Positions 1 to 5,402 are shown, counted from the stretch's first letter. The stretch: DNA of 64,000 nt from an uncultured Aquabacterium sp. (GCA_964453105.1 CAYVOP010000002.1:6321-70320); one strand, 5' to 3'. Notes: generated from the letters alone by a model not told the origin. Program-made: numbers and translations.

Positions 1-1706
1 CGCACGGGGTTGGGACGATCCAGCACCATGATCCGCACGCCCTGTTCGGCTGCGGCCCGCATGGCTTCGGCCAGGGTGGAAATGTAGGTATAGAAGCGCG
101 CCCCCGCGTCTTGCAGATCAAACACCAGGGTGTCGATGTCGCGCAAAGAGTCTGCCGTGGGGCGGCGTTGATCGCCATACAGGCTGATCAGTGTCAGGCC
201 GCTGAGGGGCTCTAGGCCGGATGCGATCTTGCCTTCGGCATCGCCATACAGGCCATGTTCGGGGCTGAACACTTTGATCAGTTGCACCCCGGGTGCCCAG
301 CGTAGCCGGTCCAGGGTTCGCCAGCCTTGACGATCAACCGCAGCAAGGTGGGTGATGAGGCCGATGCGCCGCCCGATCAAAGGTGCGAACTGTTGGGCTT
401 GCAGCATGTCAATGCCGGTGGCCACAGTCGGGCTGATAGGGCTGGCGGGCGCAGGGGGGGGCGGCGCCTTGGTTGGGGCGTGGGGTGCAAGGGGCGGGTT
501 CAGGCTGGACAGCAGGGCCAAGACCTCGCGCCGCAGCGGCCGTGCGTCGCCCTTGCCATCCGGGTGAAGCCGGTTGCTGAGCAGCACCACGAAGCGCTTT
601 TGTATCAGGTCAATCCACAAACCTGTGCCGGTGTAGCCCGTGTGTCCGATCAGGCCCAACGGGGTCTGCTGGTCCCGGTTGGCGACCAAGGGGGCCTGCA
701 ATTGCCAGCCCAGGCCACGCCACTCCGATTCATGGGCCGGACTTTGCAATCGGGCCAGTTCCTGCAGTGTTTGTGCTTTCAGCAAACGGCCAGGCTGCAG
801 CATGGCCTGAGCGAAACGGGCCAGGTCATCGGCGCTGCCAAACAGGCCGGCATGGCCCGCCACGCCCGCCATGCGCCGAGCGATGGGGTCGTGAACTCGG
901 CCTTGGAGCCACTGACCATGGGCCAAAGGTTCGGTGGGGGCAATGCGGCTGGACCAGGCGCGCGGCGGCAGGTAGCCTGAATCGTGCATGTGCAGTGGCA
1001 GCAAGATGTGCTGTCGAACGTACAAGGGCAAGGGCATGTGCGACACCCGCTGCACAATTTCGCCCAGCACCATGAAGTTGATGTCGCTATAGAGCGTGTG
1101 CGTTCCCGGTGGTGACAAGGGCTGCTCGGCTAACACACGTCGCATGGCCTCGGCTGGGCCTTGCCAATCGGGTTGCAGAGAAATGTCCGGCCTCAGTCCT
1201 GATGTGTGCGCCAGCAGTTGGCGAATCGTGATGCGGTCTTTGCCCTTGCTGGAAAAGGCTGGCCAGTAGCGGGTGGCGGGGGCATCCAGTTGCACGCGTC
1301 CCTGTTCGACCAGTTGCAACACCGCAGTGGTGGTGGCCACCACTTTGGTCAGCGAAGCCAGGTCAAAAATGGTGTCGGGGCTCATGGCCTCGGCCACAGG
1401 CTGGCGACTGCGCCAGCCCCACTGGCGCCGCAGCCAGACGCGATCGGCATCCCCCATCACCAGCACGGCGCCGGGAAGTTGCCCGGCGTTGATCTGCGCT
1501 TGAACGGCTGCATCCAGCGGCGCCCAATTGTTCGCCTGGGCAGGCAGGCCGGTGGTTGACGACTGCAGGCGTTCGATTGGCGCGGTCGTGGTCGATTCCG
1601 CGTGGGCGGAGGCGTGGAAGGCGCCGCAACCGAGCATCATCGACCACAACGCCAGGACGGCCTTCTGTCGATTGGAGGGATGCGACAAGCGCGGTGTGAG
1701 TTTCAT
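1..1706 (-). CDS. Secreted serine hydrolase (beta-lactamase/AmiE-like) fused to a DUF1343/NamZ-like exo-beta-N-acetylmuramidase domain; 3' end runs off the window
   Basis: Translated by hand; absent from the ORF track because there is no stop in the window. ATG at 1706 overlaps the upstream stop (ATGA). Contains a signal-like N-terminus, SxxK (LASLTK), YSD and GHTG, then FSPEHG and DLQDAGARFYTYIST...VLDRPNP, typical of DUF1343. Confidence 0.88.
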   Translation of the reverse strand, partial: MKLTPRLSHPSNRQKAVLALWSMMLGCGAFHASAHAESTTTAPIERLQSSTTGLPAQANNWAPLDAAVQAQINAGQLPGAVLVMGDADRVWLRRQWGWRSRQPVAEAMSPDTIFDLASLTKVVATTTAVLQLVEQGRVQLDAPATRYWPAFSSKGKDRITIRQLLAHTSGLRPDISLQPDWQGPAEAMRRVLAEQPLSPPGTHTLYSDINFMVLGEIVQRVSHMPLPLYVRQHILLPLHMHDSGYLPPRAWSSRIAPTEPLAHGQWLQGRVHDPIARRMAGVAGHAGLFGSADDLARFAQAMLQPGRLLKAQTLQELARLQSPAHESEWRGLGWQLQAPLVANRDQQTPLGLIGHTGYTGTGLWIDLIQKRFVVLLSNRLHPDGKGDARPLRREVLALLSSLNPPLAPHAPTKAPPPPAPASPISPTVATGIDMLQAQQFAPLIGRRIGLITHLAAVDRQGWRTLDRLRWAPGVQLIKVFSPEHGLYGDAEGKIASGLEPLSGLTLISLYGDQRRPTADSLRDIDTLVFDLQDAGARFYTYISTLAEAMRAAAEQGVRIMVLDRPNPV

Positions 1707-3025
1707 GGCCGGCTGTTCACACTGGTCTTGGGCTTCAGGCCCGATTCGTCGTAGTGGTTGCGGGGGTTCCACAGCATCCATCCCTGCGTGTCGGTGGCTT
1801 CGGCCGCATCGATCTGGGCGCGAATCTCCAGCGCGCCAAAAGGGCGCTTGTCAAAGCCATAGTCTCGGAAGGCTTGGAGCCAGGGGCGCCAGCACACATG
1901 GGTGCCAGTGGCGCGCTGCTTAGCCCGTTTGAGTGTGTGTTCAACGATGGCATACGGTTCGGCCACGGGGTTGCGGTGTTCGGGAATGCCAAAGGTGAAC
2001 CCCGATGGGTAGAGCATGGGCGACAGGTAATCGACATGCGGGGCGATGGCTTCGAGTTGTTGGCCGATCTGGGTGTCGTTGGTGTTCCAGGCCACGTAGC
2101 CAAAGATGTCGGCGGCGATCAGCACGTTGTATCGAGCCAGTCGTTGGCGGGCGGCAGCCAGAAAGGCGTTGATCGTGGCCACACGACGTGACTCGGTCGC
2201 GGGCTCGCTGAAGACCAGCCCCGTGGCATCGGGGAAGCGGATGTAGTCGAATTGGATCTCGTCAAAGCCCATTTGCGCGGCCTCTTCGGCCAACGCCAGG
2301 CTGCGGTCCCAGGCGCCTTGTTGAAACGGATCAATCCAGGCCACGTCTTCCCCATCTCGCCACAGGCTGCCATCGGCGCGGTGGACGGCCCATTGCGGGT
2401 GAGCGCTGGCCCACTGGTTGTCTTTGAACACCACCACCCGAGCGATGAGGTAGAGGTTTTGGGCTTTCAGTTGCCGCACCAGCGCGGGCATGTCTGCCAC
2501 GGTGATGGTTTTTTGCGGGCCCAGGCCCGATGCGGCCACCGAGGCACTGCGATGCGGCACCAGTCCACGGTCGTCTTTCACATCGATGACCAAGGCATTG
2601 ATTTCGGTGGCGGCAGCCAGTTTCAGTGCCGATTCGCGCAAAGGCCGGCTGCCAATGCCAAACACCGACAGGTACAAGGCCTTGGGCCGAATGGGTTGCA
2701 GCGCGAGCGAGTTCGGTGAGGCCGAAGCGAGCGTGTCATTGAGCCGGCTGTAGCCGCAGGCCCGAACGCTCAGGCGTGGCGGGTGGCCTGATGTGTTCAG
2801 CGTGAAGTGGCCTTGCGCATCGGTGCGAACCGATGGCTCTGCGCATGGCGCCCCGCATTGCACGGTGGCATGAGCAATGGGCTGGCCTGATTGGGCATCA
2901 ACCACCTGACCAGACCAGGTCGGTGCGATTTGCGCTTGGGCAGGGTGGCGCAGCAGCAGGCCGAGAAGGAGTCCCCAAAGGAGCCTGGACAACAGATTAG
3001 AGCGCGGGTCGATCACGTGCATCAC
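1703..3025 (-). CDS. Putative glycoside hydrolase (DUF4015-like TIM barrel) with an N-terminal carboxypeptidase-regulatory-like domain
   Basis: Signal peptide; GQVVDAQSGQPIAHATV...TDAQGHF domain; NALVIDVKDD, GFDEIQFDYIRFP and LSPMLYPSGF motifs. Confidence 0.75.
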   Translation of the reverse strand: MMHVIDPRSNLLSRLLWGLLLGLLLRHPAQAQIAPTWSGQVVDAQSGQPIAHATVQCGAPCAEPSVRTDAQGHFTLNTSGHPPRLSVRACGYSRLNDTLASASPNSLALQPIRPKALYLSVFGIGSRPLRESALKLAAATEINALVIDVKDDRGLVPHRSASVAASGLGPQKTITVADMPALVRQLKAQNLYLIARVVVFKDNQWASAHPQWAVHRADGSLWRDGEDVAWIDPFQQGAWDRSLALAEEAAQMGFDEIQFDYIRFPDATGLVFSEPATESRRVATINAFLAAARQRLARYNVLIAADIFGYVAWNTNDTQIGQQLEAIAPHVDYLSPMLYPSGFTFGIPEHRNPVAEPYAIVEHTLKRAKQRATGTHVCWRPWLQAFRDYGFDKRPFGALEIRAQIDAAEATDTQGWMLWNPRNHYDESGLKPKTSVNSRP

Positions 3026-3861
3026 TCCGGGGTGGGCAGAGCAAAAGCTCGTTGCAGCCGACGTGCCAGTTCATGTTCGTCCACGCTGTCCACCATCAGG
3101 TGCCTGGGCACGGCATAAAGCGGGGCACTCAGGAGCGCAGAACGATTTTCCAGCGCGAAGGCTGCGCGATAGCCTTCTGCTTCGGCCATGTTTTGCAAGC
3201 CTGCGTCGCTCAATCCAAAAGGCCAGGCCAGCAAATCGGCCTCTACCCCCAGTTTTTGGCGCAGCACTTCGCGAGGCCGATGCAGTTGCATGCGCGCAGC
3301 CTGCTCGAATGCGGCGGCATCCATGGTGCGTCGGTCGCGAACCAGGTTGGGGTGCCAGTAGGTGTGCGATTGAATCGACACACCTGCTTGCTGGCTGGCC
3401 TGCCGCAATTGGTCCCAGGTCATGGCGTAGCGGGCATTTGAAATGGCCGATGGGTAGATGAACAAGGTGACGGGCCAGCCCCGCTTCTGCAGTCGGGGCA
3501 GCAACACATCGGCTTGTGACCGATGCCCGTCGTCAGCCGTCAGCACCACGGCGCGGTCGGGCAGGTGGGTGCGCTCGCCGCGACGAAAGGCCACCCAGTC
3601 AGACAAGGGGATGATGTGGGCGCCCAACTTCTCCAGCGTGTCGAGGTGTGCGTCGAAGCGCTGGGTGCGCACGGTCATGCTGTCCACGGCGGTCTCGCCA
3701 AAGCGGTGGTAGACCAGAATGGGCACGGCGGTGACGATGCCATTCTGCTTGGGTGCCGCGCCATGGGCGTCGCTCGTGCCCCAGGCGGCACAAAGCACAC
3801 TGCCAAGCCAGGTGCGGCGTGACAGGCTGTGGCCGAAAAGGGTATCGTGTGAGGCGTTCAT
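3022..3861 (-). CDS. Polysaccharide deacetylase (CE4/NodB), probably Tat-exported
   Basis: SRRTWL twin-arginine motif; VPILVYH, LTADDG, SHTYWH and WPFG motifs. Start moved to ATG 3861 (MNASH). Confidence 0.85.
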   Translation of the reverse strand: MNASHDTLFGHSLSRRTWLGSVLCAAWGTSDAHGAAPKQNGIVTAVPILVYHRFGETAVDSMTVRTQRFDAHLDTLEKLGAHIIPLSDWVAFRRGERTHLPDRAVVLTADDGHRSQADVLLPRLQKRGWPVTLFIYPSAISNARYAMTWDQLRQASQQAGVSIQSHTYWHPNLVRDRRTMDAAAFEQAARMQLHRPREVLRQKLGVEADLLAWPFGLSDAGLQNMAEAEGYRAAFALENRSALLSAPLYAVPRHLMVDSVDEHELARRLQRAFALPTPE

Positions 3862-3920
3862 CTTGTTTGCAAGACTAGGGCATTCGGCCCCGGTTTGCAT
3901 GCGCAGGATCAAGGAGCATC

Positions 3921-5402
3921 GTGGCATCTGACCGACAGGCGCAAGGCGATGAGCAGGCCTCGTTCATCGACGTGTTGCGTCAACGCTTGCGGGCCACCGT
4001 GGTGGAGACCCATATTTCGTGGGTCTTGCTGGACGGCACCCACGCCTGGAAGATCAAGAAGCCTTTGAAGCTGGCATTTCTGGATGCTTCAGATTTGGAC
4101 ACCCGTCGCCAGTGGTGCGAGGCTGAGGTAAATCTGAACCGTCGATTGGCGCCTGATTTGTACCTGGGCGTGGTGCCCATCTACGGTTCGCGCTTCCTGC
4201 CCAATTTGGTGGGGCAGGGGCCCGTGATCGATTACATGGTGCAAATGCGTCAGTTTCCGGCTGACGCATTGTTGAGCCATCGCATCGGCGAGGGGCAGAT
4301 CGATCCAGCCTGGCTGGATGATTGGGCGAGCGATCTGGCTCGCTTTCACGCAGAAGCGCCCTGTGCGCCAGCCGGATCAAGCTGGGGTAGCGAGGCATGC
4401 ATCGCCGCCGCCATGCAAGGCGTGCTGGATGGCCTGGCCGCGCACGCCAGTGTGCCGGTGGCGGCCTTGCAAGGTTTGCGTGCCTGGGCTGCCGAGCAGG
4501 CGGTGACTTTGGCCCCCTTGTGGCGTGCGCGGCAGCACCAGGGCAGGGTGGTCGAAGCCCATGGCGACTTGCATCTTGACAACGTATTGCTGTGGCAGGG
4601 CCGTGTCACCGCGTTTGACTGCATCGAATTTGACCCTGCCCTGCGCTGGATTGATGCGCTCAGCGATGCGGCCTTCTTCACCATGGATCTGGCCGCGCAT
4701 GATCGGGGAGACCTGGCCTGGCGGTTTCTGAATGCCTACCTCGACGCCAGTGGCGACCACGCAGGCTTGCCGGTGTTGCGGCACCAACTGGTCTATCGCG
4801 CACTGATTCGCGCCCTGGTGGCTCGACTGCGTGCCCAGCAAACGCATGCGGATCGCGCGCAGCCATCGGAGCCAGACTACCTTGGCCTGGCCCTGCGATG
4901 GGCGGGCTTGACGGCGGCTTCCACGGCTCCGCAGCTAGCCATCACCCATGGGGTGTCGGGTTCAGGTAAAACAGTGGCGGCGGGCCATTGGTCGGTGCGA
5001 CACGAAGCCATTCGCTTGCGCTCTGATGTGGAGCGCCAACGCTTGTTCGGCTCAGGGGCCTATGCGCCAGAGCAAACGCAACGCGTGTATGAACGCCTGT
5101 GGTTCCTGGCAGACCAAGCCTTGGCAGCGGGGTGGTCTGTGGTGGTGGATGCCACCTTTTTGGCCCGGGCGCAGCGGCAGCGGTTTCACATGTTGGCCCA
5201 AGCCCATCGTGTGCCATTTCAGATCTTGCATTGCGAGGCGCCCGATGCGGTCTTGCAGCAACGCATTCGGCAACGCCAGGCATTGGGGCGGGATGCTTCC
5301 GAGGCCGATCTGGCTGTATTGGCGCACCAGCAAGGCACGGCCGAGCCCCTGACCCCGCAAGAGCTACGTGACACCCTGTGGGCACCGCCGCATCAACCTT
5401 GA
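3921..5402 (+). CDS. Bifunctional aminoglycoside-phosphotransferase-like / AAA_33 P-loop kinase protein
   Basis: VETHISWV, HGDLHLDN and DCIEF kinase motifs; Walker A GVSGSGKT; VVVDATF; AAGGAG RBS at 3911. Confidence 0.85.
   Translation: MASDRQAQGDEQASFIDVLRQRLRATVVETHISWVLLDGTHAWKIKKPLKLAFLDASDLDTRRQWCEAEVNLNRRLAPDLYLGVVPIYGSRFLPNLVGQGPVIDYMVQMRQFPADALLSHRIGEGQIDPAWLDDWASDLARFHAEAPCAPAGSSWGSEACIAAAMQGVLDGLAAHASVPVAALQGLRAWAAEQAVTLAPLWRARQHQGRVVEAHGDLHLDNVLLWQGRVTAFDCIEFDPALRWIDALSDAAFFTMDLAAHDRGDLAWRFLNAYLDASGDHAGLPVLRHQLVYRALIRALVARLRAQQTHADRAQPSEPDYLGLALRWAGLTAASTAPQLAITHGVSGSGKTVAAGHWSVRHEAIRLRSDVERQRLFGSGAYAPEQTQRVYERLWFLADQALAAGWSVVVDATFLARAQRQRFHMLAQAHRVPFQILHCEAPDAVLQQRIRQRQALGRDASEADLAVLAHQQGTAEPLTPQELRDTLWAPPHQP

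What the first reader, a model, noticed from the sequence alone, without database searches (positions are those of the whole stretch)
1..3861. Exported cell-wall glycan salvage operon with an AmiE-NamZ-like fusion
Three translationally coupled genes: a Tat CE4 deacetylase, a DUF4015-like glycoside hydrolase, and a serine hydrolase fused to NamZ. Established: in Bacillus subtilis the amidase AmiE (beta-lactamase fold) and the exo-muramidase NamZ are separate peptidoglycan-recycling enzymes. Inference: a one-polypeptide amidase + muramidase, plus two more glycan enzymes, for scavenging external peptidoglycan. This would also suggest a substrate for the poorly characterised DUF4015 family. The fusion gene is missing from the ORF track.
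Basis: partly seen in the sequence, partly recalled or inferred. Interest (0 to 1): 0.55.

Follow-up and report, generated by a model that had tools for sequence, protein, structure and literature searches.

The report
Exported peptidoglycan-dismantling gene cassette
Three overlapping genes encode exported enzymes, one of them a fusion of an AmiE/YfeW-like serine hydrolase to the exo-muramidase NamZ, and this set travels as a unit across many bacterial phyla, which makes cell-wall glycan a testable substrate for the uncharacterised DUF4015 family.

Summary
On the minus strand lie a PgaB-type CE4 deacetylase, a DUF4015 TIM-barrel protein and a beta-lactamase-fold serine hydrolase fused to a complete NamZ (GH171). 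Stop and start codons overlap at both junctions (GTGATG, ATGA). The fusion is 810 aa, and its last 242 aa lie left of the window, which explains its absence from the ORF track.

The fusion is not rare: more than 7,900 database relatives, and the top 120 all have this architecture. The set behaves as a unit:
- The fusion and DUF4015 occur in exactly the same 8 of 24 genus genomes.
- The trio recurs in at least eight phylum or class labels, with unrelated flanks.
- One genome has the four modules unfused.
- Other organisms fuse CE4+DUF4015, or DUF4015 plus the same serine hydrolase.

The DUF4015 model is closest to Cwp19, a peptidoglycan lytic transglycosylase, and to the PgaB hydrolase domain. 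Other neighbours include M23, NlpC/P60, Ddl and a peptide-binding protein. None of the 24 neighbours scanned matched a glycosyltransferase or polysaccharide-export family.

My reading is an exported peptidoglycan glycan-strand disassembly module. The amidase activity, the DUF4015 bond specificity and the "external scavenging" role remain untested. Earlier first-reader notes from this scan record the same fusion in at least eight other genomes. I found no experimental paper on it.

The parts
3022..3861 (-). CE4 polysaccharide deacetylase of the PgaB/IcaB type, with an N-terminal twin-arginine-like signal (SRRTWLG). The longest ORF extends to 3927.
   Evidence: Pfam PF01522 scores 2.4e-18. NCBIfam PgaB scores 86.7 bits against a cut-off of 321.9. 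The alignment to PgaB 3vus/4f9d keeps H74 (YHRF), D132-D133 (TADDG), H188/H192 (HTYWH) and WPFG. The start region was read.
1703..3025 (-). Exported DUF4015 protein, with a Sec-type signal. The CarboxypepD_reg-like beta-sandwich is at about 2738-2914 and the DUF4015 TIM barrel at about 1751-2680.
   Evidence: Pfam PF13200 scores 2e-108 over the full profile length, and PF13620 scores 9e-08. PDB 4s1a matches at 9e-46. The AF2 model has pLDDT 93.4. It is nearest to Cwp19 (Z 25.6) and the PgaB C-terminal domain (Z 23.8).
1..1706 (-). N-terminal 568 aa of the 810-aa fusion protein. The gene continues 727 nt (241 codons plus the stop and one split codon) beyond the left edge of the window, to G000:C2:5594.
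   Evidence: The called protein is P0009, 810 aa. The AF2 model of the whole protein has pLDDT 91.7 and pTM 0.89.
528..1517 (-). Beta-lactamase-fold (PF00144) serine hydrolase domain of the fusion. In P0004 numbering it carries S143-x-x-K146, Y231-S-D and H380-T-G.
   Evidence: Pfam scores 1.8e-72. Identity to E. coli YfeW/PBP4B is 30%, E 2e-36, with the same three motifs. These residues are invariant in 16 and in 114 homologues.
366..527 (-). Pro/Ala-rich linker between the two catalytic domains.
   Evidence: Translation. pLDDT is lower (68-85) at residues 401-430 in P0009 numbering.
1..365 (-). Start of the NamZ (GH171) domain. It includes the invariant FSPEHG motif with E508 (window about 258-260). 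The rest of NamZ_N and all of NamZ_C lie outside the window.
   Evidence: NamZ_N covers residues 473-674 and NamZ_C covers 680-832. PDB 4k05 matches at 2e-63 with PEHG aligned. [quoted passage not shown]

Best explanation
This is a self-contained, horizontally mobile cassette of three exported (periplasmic) proteins carrying four enzyme modules. I read it as a system that takes peptidoglycan glycan strands or muropeptides apart.

Inferred mechanism:
1. The fusion protein joins two consecutive steps of the exo-lytic pathway established for Bacillus subtilis (NagZ, then AmiE, then NamZ). Its AmiE/YfeW-like serine hydrolase strips the stem peptide from a MurNAc at the non-reducing end. The tethered NamZ domain then releases that peptide-free MurNAc.
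2. The cassette contains no GH3 NagZ, and the only NagZ found in the genome is the cytoplasmic type. The CE4 deacetylase and the DUF4015 TIM barrel therefore most likely handle the GlcNAc side of the polymer. One option is removal of GlcNAc or GlcN after de-N-acetylation, in the way PgaB couples deacetylation to hydrolysis. The other is a Cwp19-like cut of the backbone that creates new ends.
3. The products (MurNAc, GlcNAc or GlcN, and peptides) would be taken up and reused.

Shown here: the domain identities, intact catalytic motifs, export signals, translational coupling, and conserved linkage and fusion of all four modules.

Inferred: the substrate, the order of the steps, the amidase activity, the bond cut by DUF4015, and whether the peptidoglycan is the cell's own or foreign.
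For: Domains and motifs:
- Pfam, NCBIfam and PDB hits support all domain calls.
- The NamZ domain is full length, and the invariant Glu of FSPEHG sits at the end of strand 2. That matches the putative catalytic Glu92 of BsNamZ (PMC8054146).
- The serine hydrolase shares SxxK, YSD and HTG with E. coli YfeW, which is encoded in the murQ-murP-yfeW operon.
- AmiE is itself a PF00144 protein (PMC10653849, Table 1).
- NamZ enzymes need peptide-free MurNAc ends (PMC8054146; bioRxiv 10.1101/2021.12.02.470905). This gives a rationale for the fusion.

Linkage:
- The gene order CE4, DUF4015, fusion is the same in 7 of 7 assessable genus relatives, while the flanks differ.
- DUF4015 and the fusion are present in exactly the same 8 of 24 genus genomes and in none of 16 genomes from other families.
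- In a 400-genome class sample, 5 of 7 full-length DUF4015 genes lie next to NamZ.
- Across phyla, 12 of 24 assessable loci with DUF4015 at 45% identity or more carry the fusion within 5 kb, and 15 of 24 carry the CE4 within 2 kb.

Fusion (Rosetta-stone) evidence:
- One genome (L021) has CE4, DUF4015, NamZ and the serine hydrolase as four separate adjacent genes.
- P0134 fuses CE4 to DUF4015.
- P0160 fuses DUF4015 to a serine hydrolase that is 41% identical to this one.
- Other DUF4015 proteins carry LysM or SH3_3 domains.

Structure and context:
- The DUF4015 model is nearest to Cwp19, a peptidoglycan lytic transglycosylase (PMC6016235, PMC5765458), and to PgaB GH153.
- Neighbours elsewhere include Peptidase_M23 overlapping the CE4 start, NlpC/P60, D-Ala-D-Ala ligase and an SBP_bac_5 peptide-binding protein. 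None of the 24 neighbours scanned matched a polysaccharide synthase or export family.
- The own-genome NagZ is the cytoplasmic type.
Against: - No activity has been measured for any of the four modules.
- The serine hydrolase scores 131.6 bits against the PBP4B model, whose cut-off is 385. YfeW itself is annotated as a penicillin-binding protein, not an amidase.
- The best structural match of that domain is EstG, listed in the PDB only as 'EstG'. From my own recollection it is an esterase that acts on periplasmic glucans rather than on peptidoglycan.
- The CE4 is most like the PNAG deacetylases PgaB and IcaB. PgaB-C is almost as close to the DUF4015 model as Cwp19 (Z 23.8 against 25.6), and generic GH TIM barrels follow at Z 20-22.
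- Half of the close DUF4015 loci lack NamZ, and all distant ones do.
- No MurQ was found in this 91%-complete genome, and AmgK/MurU could not be identified. The fate of released MurNAc is therefore open.
Confidence: 0.6

Rival explanations
1. The cassette acts on peptidoglycan, but the serine hydrolase domain is not a MurNAc-L-Ala amidase. It could be a DD- or LD-peptidase that trims or un-crosslinks stem peptides. It could also be an esterase, for example one removing O-acetyl groups from MurNAc, that prepares the strand for NamZ.
For: - The closest named model is PBP4B, a penicillin-binding protein.
- R61 DD-peptidase, alkaline D-peptidase and family VIII esterases are all structural neighbours, and EstG is the best of them.
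- The SxxK/YSD/HTG motif set is shared with DD-peptidases such as R61, which has HTG. That last point is from my own knowledge.
Against: - NamZ enzymes do not act on MurNAc that still carries a peptide (bioRxiv 10.1101/2021.12.02.470905), and no other amidase is present in the cassette.
- AmiE, the one characterised PF00144 enzyme that works directly upstream of NamZ, is an amidase (PMC8054146, PMC10653849).
- The domain is fused to NamZ, or encoded next to it, in every locus found.
Confidence: 0.2
2. CE4 and DUF4015 form a split PgaB-like pair. They deacetylate and cleave a GlcNAc-containing exopolysaccharide such as PNAG, chitin-like or Pel-like matrix. The link to NamZ would then reflect joint amino-sugar scavenging rather than action on one polymer.
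For: - The CE4 is most similar to PgaB and IcaB, with the same motif order.
- The DUF4015 model matches the PgaB GH153 domain at Z 23.8.
- CE4+DUF4015 occurs as one polypeptide, like PgaB.
- The pair occurs without NamZ in several genomes.
Against: - None of the 24 neighbours scanned matched a glycosyltransferase, synthase or export family.
- Where NamZ is absent, the pair sits beside peptidoglycan peptidases: M23 (overlapping start) and NlpC/P60.
- DUF4015 is fused to the NamZ-type serine hydrolase in P0160, and to LysM or SH3_3 in other proteins.
- In this genus the phyletic pattern matches that of the fusion exactly.
- The PgaB equivalog cut-offs are far from met.
Confidence: 0.12
3. The cassette has the biochemistry of the best explanation but a housekeeping role. 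It clears the cell's own peptide-free (denuded) glycan strands and turnover fragments in the periplasm. It does not scavenge foreign peptidoglycan.
For: - All three proteins carry signal peptides and nothing suggests secretion beyond the periplasm.
- No TonB-dependent receptor or porin gene is conserved beside the cassette.
- The genome has AnmK and a cytoplasmic NagZ, so it recycles its own wall.
Against: - The cassette is patchy, present in 8 of 24 genus genomes and 5 of 400 class genomes. That fits an accessory nutritional trait better than core housekeeping.
- Gram-negative turnover products end in 1,6-anhydroMurNAc and are normally imported whole by AmpG (my own knowledge).
- In Tannerella, periplasmic NamZ enzymes are proposed to serve the salvage of foreign peptidoglycan (bioRxiv 10.1101/2021.12.02.470905).
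Confidence: 0.3

Closest known systems
Bacillus subtilis exo-lytic peptidoglycan recycling enzymes NagZ, AmiE and NamZ (murQ-murR-murP-amiE-nagZ-namZ operon; PMC8054146)
   Same: Both have a NamZ (GH171) domain and a PF00144 serine hydrolase partner. In both, the enzymes are exported and co-transcribed. The logic is also shared: the peptide must be removed before NamZ can release MurNAc.
   Different: - Here the two enzymes are one polypeptide.
- There is no GH3 NagZ in the cassette. A CE4 deacetylase and a DUF4015 TIM barrel take its place.
- There is no murQ, murP or murR nearby, and MurQ was not found in the genome.
- The host is a Gram-negative, so the compartment is the periplasm.
Escherichia coli YfeW (PBP4B), encoded in murQ-murP-yfeW
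   Same: The N-terminal domain of the fusion is 30% identical over its full length (E 2e-36) and has the same SxxK, YSD and HTG motifs. YfeW also has a genomic link to MurNAc metabolism.
   Different: YfeW is a stand-alone protein. The NCBIfam PBP4B cut-off is not reached (131.6 against 385 bits). The physiological substrate of YfeW is itself unsettled.
Tannerella forsythia NamZ1 and NamZ2 (bioRxiv 10.1101/2021.12.02.470905)
   Same: These are proposed periplasmic GH171 enzymes of a Gram-negative that act on peptide-free glycans. NamZ1 also releases GlcN-MurNAc from partly de-N-acetylated glycans, which shows that deacetylation and GH171 action can go together.
   Different: The Tannerella enzymes are stand-alone, and the amidase that works before them is still unidentified. 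There is no DUF4015 or CE4 partner.
PgaB (CE4 deacetylase plus GH153 hydrolase, PNAG processing)
   Same: Both combine a CE4 module with a TIM-barrel glycosidase. The catalytic and metal-binding residues of the CE4 are conserved. The structural match of DUF4015 to PgaB-C is Z 23.8.
   Different: - Here they are two genes rather than one, although fused forms exist elsewhere.
- The PgaB model cut-offs are not met.
- There is no pgaA, pgaC or pgaD context.
- The pair is linked to NamZ and to peptidoglycan peptidases.
Clostridioides difficile Cwp19 (GHL10; peptidoglycan lytic transglycosylase; PMC6016235, PMC5765458)
   Same: It is the best structural neighbour of the DUF4015 barrel (Z 25.6, 290 residues aligned, 16% identity). 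Some DUF4015 homologues also hit the GHL10 model weakly.
   Different: It belongs to a different Pfam family. A DUF4015 profile does not reach Cwp19 by sequence. Cwp19 is an S-layer-anchored autolysin of a Gram-positive.

Membership tests
NamZ / GH171 exo-beta-N-acetylmuramidase | Full-length two-domain DUF1343 architecture (NamZ_N plus NamZ_C) | tested here: met
   NamZ_N covers profile positions 1-201 of 203 at 4.3e-71. NamZ_C covers positions 2-152 of 152 at 1.4e-41. PDB 4k05 matches at 2e-63. Foldseek gives a target-normalised TM-score of 0.89.
NamZ / GH171 exo-beta-N-acetylmuramidase | [quoted passage not shown] | tested here: met
   E508 in the FSPEHG motif is invariant in 114 homologues. 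It is aligned to PEHG in both B. fragilis structures. In the model it follows strand 475-481 directly, in P0009 numbering. Equivalence to Glu92 is inferred from the description in PMC8054146, not from an alignment to BsNamZ.
NamZ / GH171 exo-beta-N-acetylmuramidase | Release of non-reducing-end MurNAc (pNP-MurNAc, MurNAc-GlcNAc) | not testable with these tools
   Requires an enzyme assay.
[quoted passage not shown] | PF00144 beta-lactamase fold with an intact SxxK serine nucleophile | tested here: met
   PF00144 scores 6e-72. S143-L-T-K146, Y231-S-D and H380-T-G are invariant. AmiE is listed under PF00144 in PMC10653849.
[quoted passage not shown] | Closer to AmiE than to other PF00144 subfamilies (orthology) | not tested
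   No tool gave access to the B. subtilis AmiE sequence. Only E. coli YfeW could be compared (30% identity).
[quoted passage not shown] | Cleaves the MurNAc-L-Ala amide bond of MurNAc-peptides | not testable with these tools
   Requires an enzyme assay.
PBP4B (NCBIfam NF002968 equivalog) | Score above the curated cut-off | tested here: not met
   131.6 bits against a cut-off of 385. It is a relative, not an equivalog.
CE4 metal-dependent polysaccharide deacetylase | Asp-Asp (base plus metal ligand), His-x-x-x-His metal ligands and a catalytic His | tested here: met
   TADDG, HTYWH and YHRF align to the corresponding PgaB residues, and WPFG aligns to WPYG. PF01522 scores 2.4e-18.
PgaB / IcaB PNAG deacetylase (NCBIfam equivalogs) | Score above the curated cut-off | tested here: not met
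   TIGR03938 scores 86.7 against 321.9. TIGR03933 scores 59.3 against 248. No pga or ica genes were found among the scanned neighbours.
DUF4015 (PF13200) putative glycoside hydrolase | Full-length match and conservation of the family's near-invariant polar residues | tested here: met
   The match scores 2e-108 over profile positions 1-313 of 313. D148, K150, R196, D202, D255, E256, D260, Y261, R263, D306, Q322, D332, Y339, R380 and Q384 are present. The model is a TIM barrel with pLDDT 93.
GHL10 / Cwp19-like peptidoglycan lytic transglycosylase | Sequence-level membership in PF02638 | tested here: not met
   P0002 does not hit GHL10, and a DUF4015 profile does not reach Cwp19. The similarity is structural only (Z 25.6). 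10 of 69 long homologues hit GHL10 weakly.

The most novel reading that the evidence does not exclude
DUF4015 is a new family of peptidoglycan glycan-strand hydrolases: either a GlcNAc/GlcN-releasing exo-enzyme or a Cwp19-like lytic transglycosylase. It works with a dedicated CE4 de-N-acetylase. Together with the AmiE-like-NamZ fusion it would form a complete, NagZ-independent, horizontally mobile periplasmic line that dismantles peptidoglycan to monosaccharides and peptides. This line would be present in many Gram-negative phyla.
Probability: 0.35. Interest if true: 0.65.

Novelty: new variant of a known kind. Interest (0 to 1): 0.5.

Why it matters
- Exo-lytic peptidoglycan degradation by NagZ, AmiE and NamZ has been worked out only in Bacillus subtilis. 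NamZ alone has also been studied in Tannerella, where the amidase that acts first is still unidentified.
- This cassette shows a widespread Gram-negative version in which the amidase-like and muramidase steps are welded into one protein.
- It also ties two further enzymes to those steps. That gives DUF4015, a family with more than 4,600 representative clusters and no assigned function, a concrete substrate to test.
- It would add a route for cell-wall turnover or necromass use in soil and water bacteria.
- It would also supply enzymes for tailoring defined peptidoglycan fragments.

Tried and rejected
Gene context was obtained through the genome search, the fetch from genomes and the search for related loci instead.
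- The B. subtilis AmiE sequence could not be obtained. Litzinger et al. 2010 is not held. A direct AmiE comparison was therefore replaced by E. coli YfeW and by the Pfam listing of AmiE in PMC10653849.
- Search for the downstream MurNAc route in the own genome:
  - MurQ was not found; the best hit was 23 bits.
  - The APH and NTP_transferase hits are not adjacent.
  - The APH gene on contig C50 is followed by a histidine phosphatase, not MurU.
  - AmgK and MurU remain unresolved.
- A DUF4015 profile search against PDB sequences reached only 4s1a and the beta-sandwich domains of SusC/TonB receptors. It did not reach Cwp19 or PgaB, so no residue-level mapping of catalytic residues was possible.
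- The promoter and terminator scan gave nothing on the minus strand.
- Literature searches for DUF4015, DUF1343, GH171, NamZ, and YfeW+AmiE found no paper on the fusion or on DUF4015 function.
- The two small ORFs between DUF4015 and the fusion in the Burkholderia ambifaria locus have no NCBIfam hit.
- I considered a PNAG-type exopolysaccharide operon and rejected it as the main reading. None of the 24 neighbours scanned matched a synthase or export family.

Full report
**What is in the sequence**

The left end of the window carries three minus-strand ORFs.

- ORF 3022-3927 is a CE4 polysaccharide deacetylase (PF01522, 2.4e-18). Its best named relatives are the PNAG deacetylases PgaB and IcaB, but it scores far below their curated cut-offs (86.7 against 321.9 bits).
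- ORF 1703-3025 has a small CarboxypepD_reg-like beta-sandwich followed by a full-length DUF4015 domain (2e-108, profile positions 1-313 of 313).
- The third ORF runs off base 1 of the window.

The window is G000:C2:6321-70320. After fetching the contig start (L002), the third gene is complete. The longest ORF is 835 aa and the called protein is 810 aa. It contains Beta-lactamase (6e-72), NamZ_N (4e-71, 201 of 203 positions) and NamZ_C (1.4e-41, 151 of 152 positions). Only 568 of the 810 residues lie inside the window.

I read both junctions directly.

- The CE4 stop overlaps the DUF4015 start in GTGATG at 3025-3020.
- The DUF4015 stop overlaps the fusion start in ATGA at 1706-1703.

All three products begin with signal-like segments. 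The CE4 has SRRTWLG, and a twin-arginine motif recurs in its genus orthologues. Orthologues from other phyla have Sec-type signals instead. No signal-peptide predictor was available, so export is an inference from the sequence.

**Are the enzymes intact?**

- CE4: aligned to PgaB, it keeps the Asp-Asp pair (TADDG), the two metal-binding histidines (HTYWH), the N-terminal His (YHRF) and WPFG.
- Serine hydrolase domain: it keeps S143-x-x-K146, Y231-S-D and H380-T-G, which are invariant in 16 and in 114 homologues.
- NamZ domain: it keeps the invariant FSPEHG motif. This aligns to PEHG in both Bacteroides fragilis DUF1343 structures.
- AlphaFold2 model of the 810-aa protein: pLDDT 91.7 and pTM 0.89. 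[quoted passage not shown] The NamZ paper places the putative catalytic Glu92 in the same position (PMC8054146).
- DUF4015 protein: it keeps all near-invariant polar residues of 150 family representatives.

**How common is the fusion?**

It is very common. A word-indexed search returned 7,963 relatives among the 8,000 candidates scored. The best 120 all carry Beta-lactamase plus NamZ_N plus NamZ_C. Their source names are "serine hydrolase", "DUF1343 domain-containing protein" or "NamZ domain-containing protein", from Aquabacterium, Ideonella, Pseudogulbenkiania, Thiobacillaceae, Acidithiobacillus and others.

In an even sample of 400 genomes of the class, 37 have NamZ and 5 of those are the fused form, judged by open-frame length. 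That tally includes two unpublished genomes, G181 and G336, both with stand-alone NamZ. No other claim in this report rests on them.

First-reader notes elsewhere in this scan record the same fusion in at least eight other genomes, two of them with the deacetylase and the DUF4015/GHL gene beside it. Those notes are unchecked.

I found no paper in the held library on the fusion or on DUF4015 function.

**Is the trio a unit?**

Yes, by four independent kinds of evidence.

1. Gene order. In the window's genus, 8 of 24 other genomes have the fusion. All 7 with enough contig show CE4, DUF4015 and fusion in the same order. The flanking genes (AlkB, a 966-aa protein and an AAA_33 protein here; PutA elsewhere) are not shared.
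2. Phyletic pattern. DUF4015 is present in exactly the same 8 genus genomes. It is absent from the 16 genus genomes without the fusion and from the 16 genomes sampled from other families.
3. Wider sampling.
   - In the 400-genome class sample, 7 genomes have a full-length DUF4015, and in 5 of them it lies next to NamZ.
   - A scan of one genome per species with a DUF4015 alignment gave 80 loci. I scanned them with HMMs built here.
   - Among loci at 45% identity or more to the query with at least 3 kb on both sides, 12 of 24 carry the serine-hydrolase-NamZ fusion within 5 kb, 15 of 24 carry the CE4 within 2 kb, and 11 carry both.
   - At 40-44% identity the figure is 3 of 6. Below 40% identity it is 0 of 21.
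   - Record titles place the trio in Burkholderiales (Ideonella, Burkholderia ambifaria, Ralstonia), Acidithiobacillus, Terriglobia, Verrucomicrobiia, Desulfobacterota, Thermodesulfovibrionales, an alphaproteobacterium and Rokubacteria. In Rokubacteria the order is different and the fusion is convergent.
   - MAG labels may be unreliable, but the flanks differ throughout.
4. Fusions and splits.
   - In G045 (L021) the four modules are four separate adjacent genes in the order CE4, DUF4015, NamZ, serine hydrolase.
   - In G421 and G273 the DUF4015 gene is divergent from the fusion.
   - Among the 69 longest DUF4015 representatives, three are CE4+DUF4015 in one chain (for example P0134; a cluster member is NCBI MFN7922221.1). 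One (P0160) is DUF4015 followed by a serine hydrolase 41% identical to the one here. Three carry LysM and one carries SH3_3.

**What do the parts resemble?**

The serine hydrolase:
- It is 30% identical over its full length to E. coli YfeW/PBP4B (E 2e-36) and has the same three motifs.
- yfeW is the last gene of murQ-murP-yfeW.
- B. subtilis AmiE, the exo-MurNAc-L-Ala amidase that acts just before NamZ, is also a PF00144 protein (PMC10653849, Table 1; PMC8054146). I could not obtain its sequence, so orthology is untested.
- By structure, the nearest solved protein is EstG. Family VIII esterases, R61 DD-peptidase and class C beta-lactamases come close behind. From my own recollection, EstG is a Caulobacter esterase acting on periplasmic glucans. 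The fold alone therefore does not fix the reaction.

The DUF4015 barrel:
- The model has pLDDT 93.4.
- It is nearest to Cwp19 of C. difficile (Z 25.6, 290 residues, 16% identity). Cwp19 is a GHL10 protein shown to be a peptidoglycan lytic transglycosylase (PMC6016235; structure PMC5765458).
- Next comes the PgaB GH153 domain (Z 23.8). Generic GH TIM barrels follow at Z 20-22.
- A sequence profile does not reach either protein.

**Context elsewhere**

Where the CE4-DUF4015 pair occurs without NamZ:
- In L037 it follows a Peptidase_M23 gene whose stop meets the CE4 start.
- In L024 it lies divergent from an NlpC/P60 gene.

Other neighbours of cassette variants:
- The G421 and G273 fusions are followed by an SBP_bac_5 peptide-binding protein.
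- L021 has D-Ala-D-Ala ligase upstream.

None of the 24 neighbours I scanned matched a glycosyltransferase or polysaccharide-export family.

**Most likely mechanism**

Established knowledge:
- In B. subtilis, NagZ, AmiE and NamZ act in that order from the non-reducing end.
- NamZ-family enzymes accept only peptide-free MurNAc (PMC8054146; bioRxiv 10.1101/2021.12.02.470905).

Inference:
- The fusion joins the "peptide off" and "MurNAc off" steps in one exported protein.
- The cassette has no GH3 enzyme, and the genome's NagZ is the cytoplasmic type (NF003740, 441 bits). CE4 plus DUF4015 therefore most plausibly deal with the GlcNAc residue or with the backbone itself.
- They could do this by deacetylation-dependent release, in the way PgaB couples the two activities. 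Tannerella NamZ1 tolerates GlcN-MurNAc, which fits this option. Alternatively they could make Cwp19-like cuts.
- I put the peptidoglycan-directed reading at about 0.6. The specific role of DUF4015 is much less certain.

Whether the substrate is foreign or the cell's own wall is open. The patchy distribution favours an accessory, nutritional role. The lack of any conserved uptake gene favours periplasmic housekeeping.

The fate of MurNAc in this genome is unresolved. MurQ was not found in the 91%-complete assembly. AnmK is present. AmgK and MurU were not identified.

**Verdict**

It overstates three points:
- the amidase activity, which is unproven;
- "external" scavenging, which is untested;
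- the reach to the whole DUF4015 family, since only the subclade at 40% identity or more is linked to NamZ.

The cassette is a new, widespread variant of a known recycling pathway. The fusion is already visible in databases by its domain annotation. The most useful point is that it makes the function of DUF4015 directly testable.

Noticed in passing
L002:4927-5586 (G000:C2, left of the window): An AlkB-type 2OG-Fe(II) oxygenase gene (PF13532, 8e-62). Its likely ATG lies 7 nt after the fusion's stop codon, on the same strand, so it may be co-transcribed. It is not next to the cassette in any relative examined.
   Followed up: partly
L002:1986-4886 (G000:C2, left of the window): A 966-aa protein with a lipoprotein-like N-terminus (LSGCGGGG) and no Pfam hit at all. 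Function unknown.
   Followed up: no
window 3921-5402 (+): A 493-aa protein divergent from the cassette. Only its C-terminal part matches a family (AAA_33 kinase-like domain, residues 339-477). The N-terminal 330 aa or so have no Pfam hit. It is not conserved beside the cassette in relatives.
   Followed up: partly
G006:C20:799334-801724 (L010/L018): The fusion orthologue in one genus relative has a single in-frame TGA. This could be a pseudogene, a sequencing error or a split gene.
   Followed up: no
L028 / G002:C15 (JBLNAI010000015.1): The closest relative of the cassette (71% DUF4015 identity) is a 698,894-bp contig titled 'Acidobacteriota bacterium MAG181'. The genome search nevertheless places it in the same genus as the window, whose other named relatives are Aquabacterium, Roseateles and Ideonella. 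The public label looks inconsistent.
   Followed up: no
class sample, e.g. G317:C1:2581543-2582073, G075:C62:23823-24344: About 20 ORFs of roughly 300 aa, in genomes that are mostly small, match only the second half of the DUF4015 profile (positions about 115-313, 90-120 bits). They appear to be a separate, shorter subfamily that is not adjacent to NamZ.
   Followed up: no
P0002 residues 38-107 (window about 2705-2914): The N-terminal beta-sandwich of the DUF4015 protein resembles the N-terminal extension domain of SusC/RagA-type TonB-dependent transporters (PDB 9hfj, 8aa4). It is repeated up to several times in longer DUF4015 homologues (54 of the 69 longest homologues carry it).
   Followed up: partly
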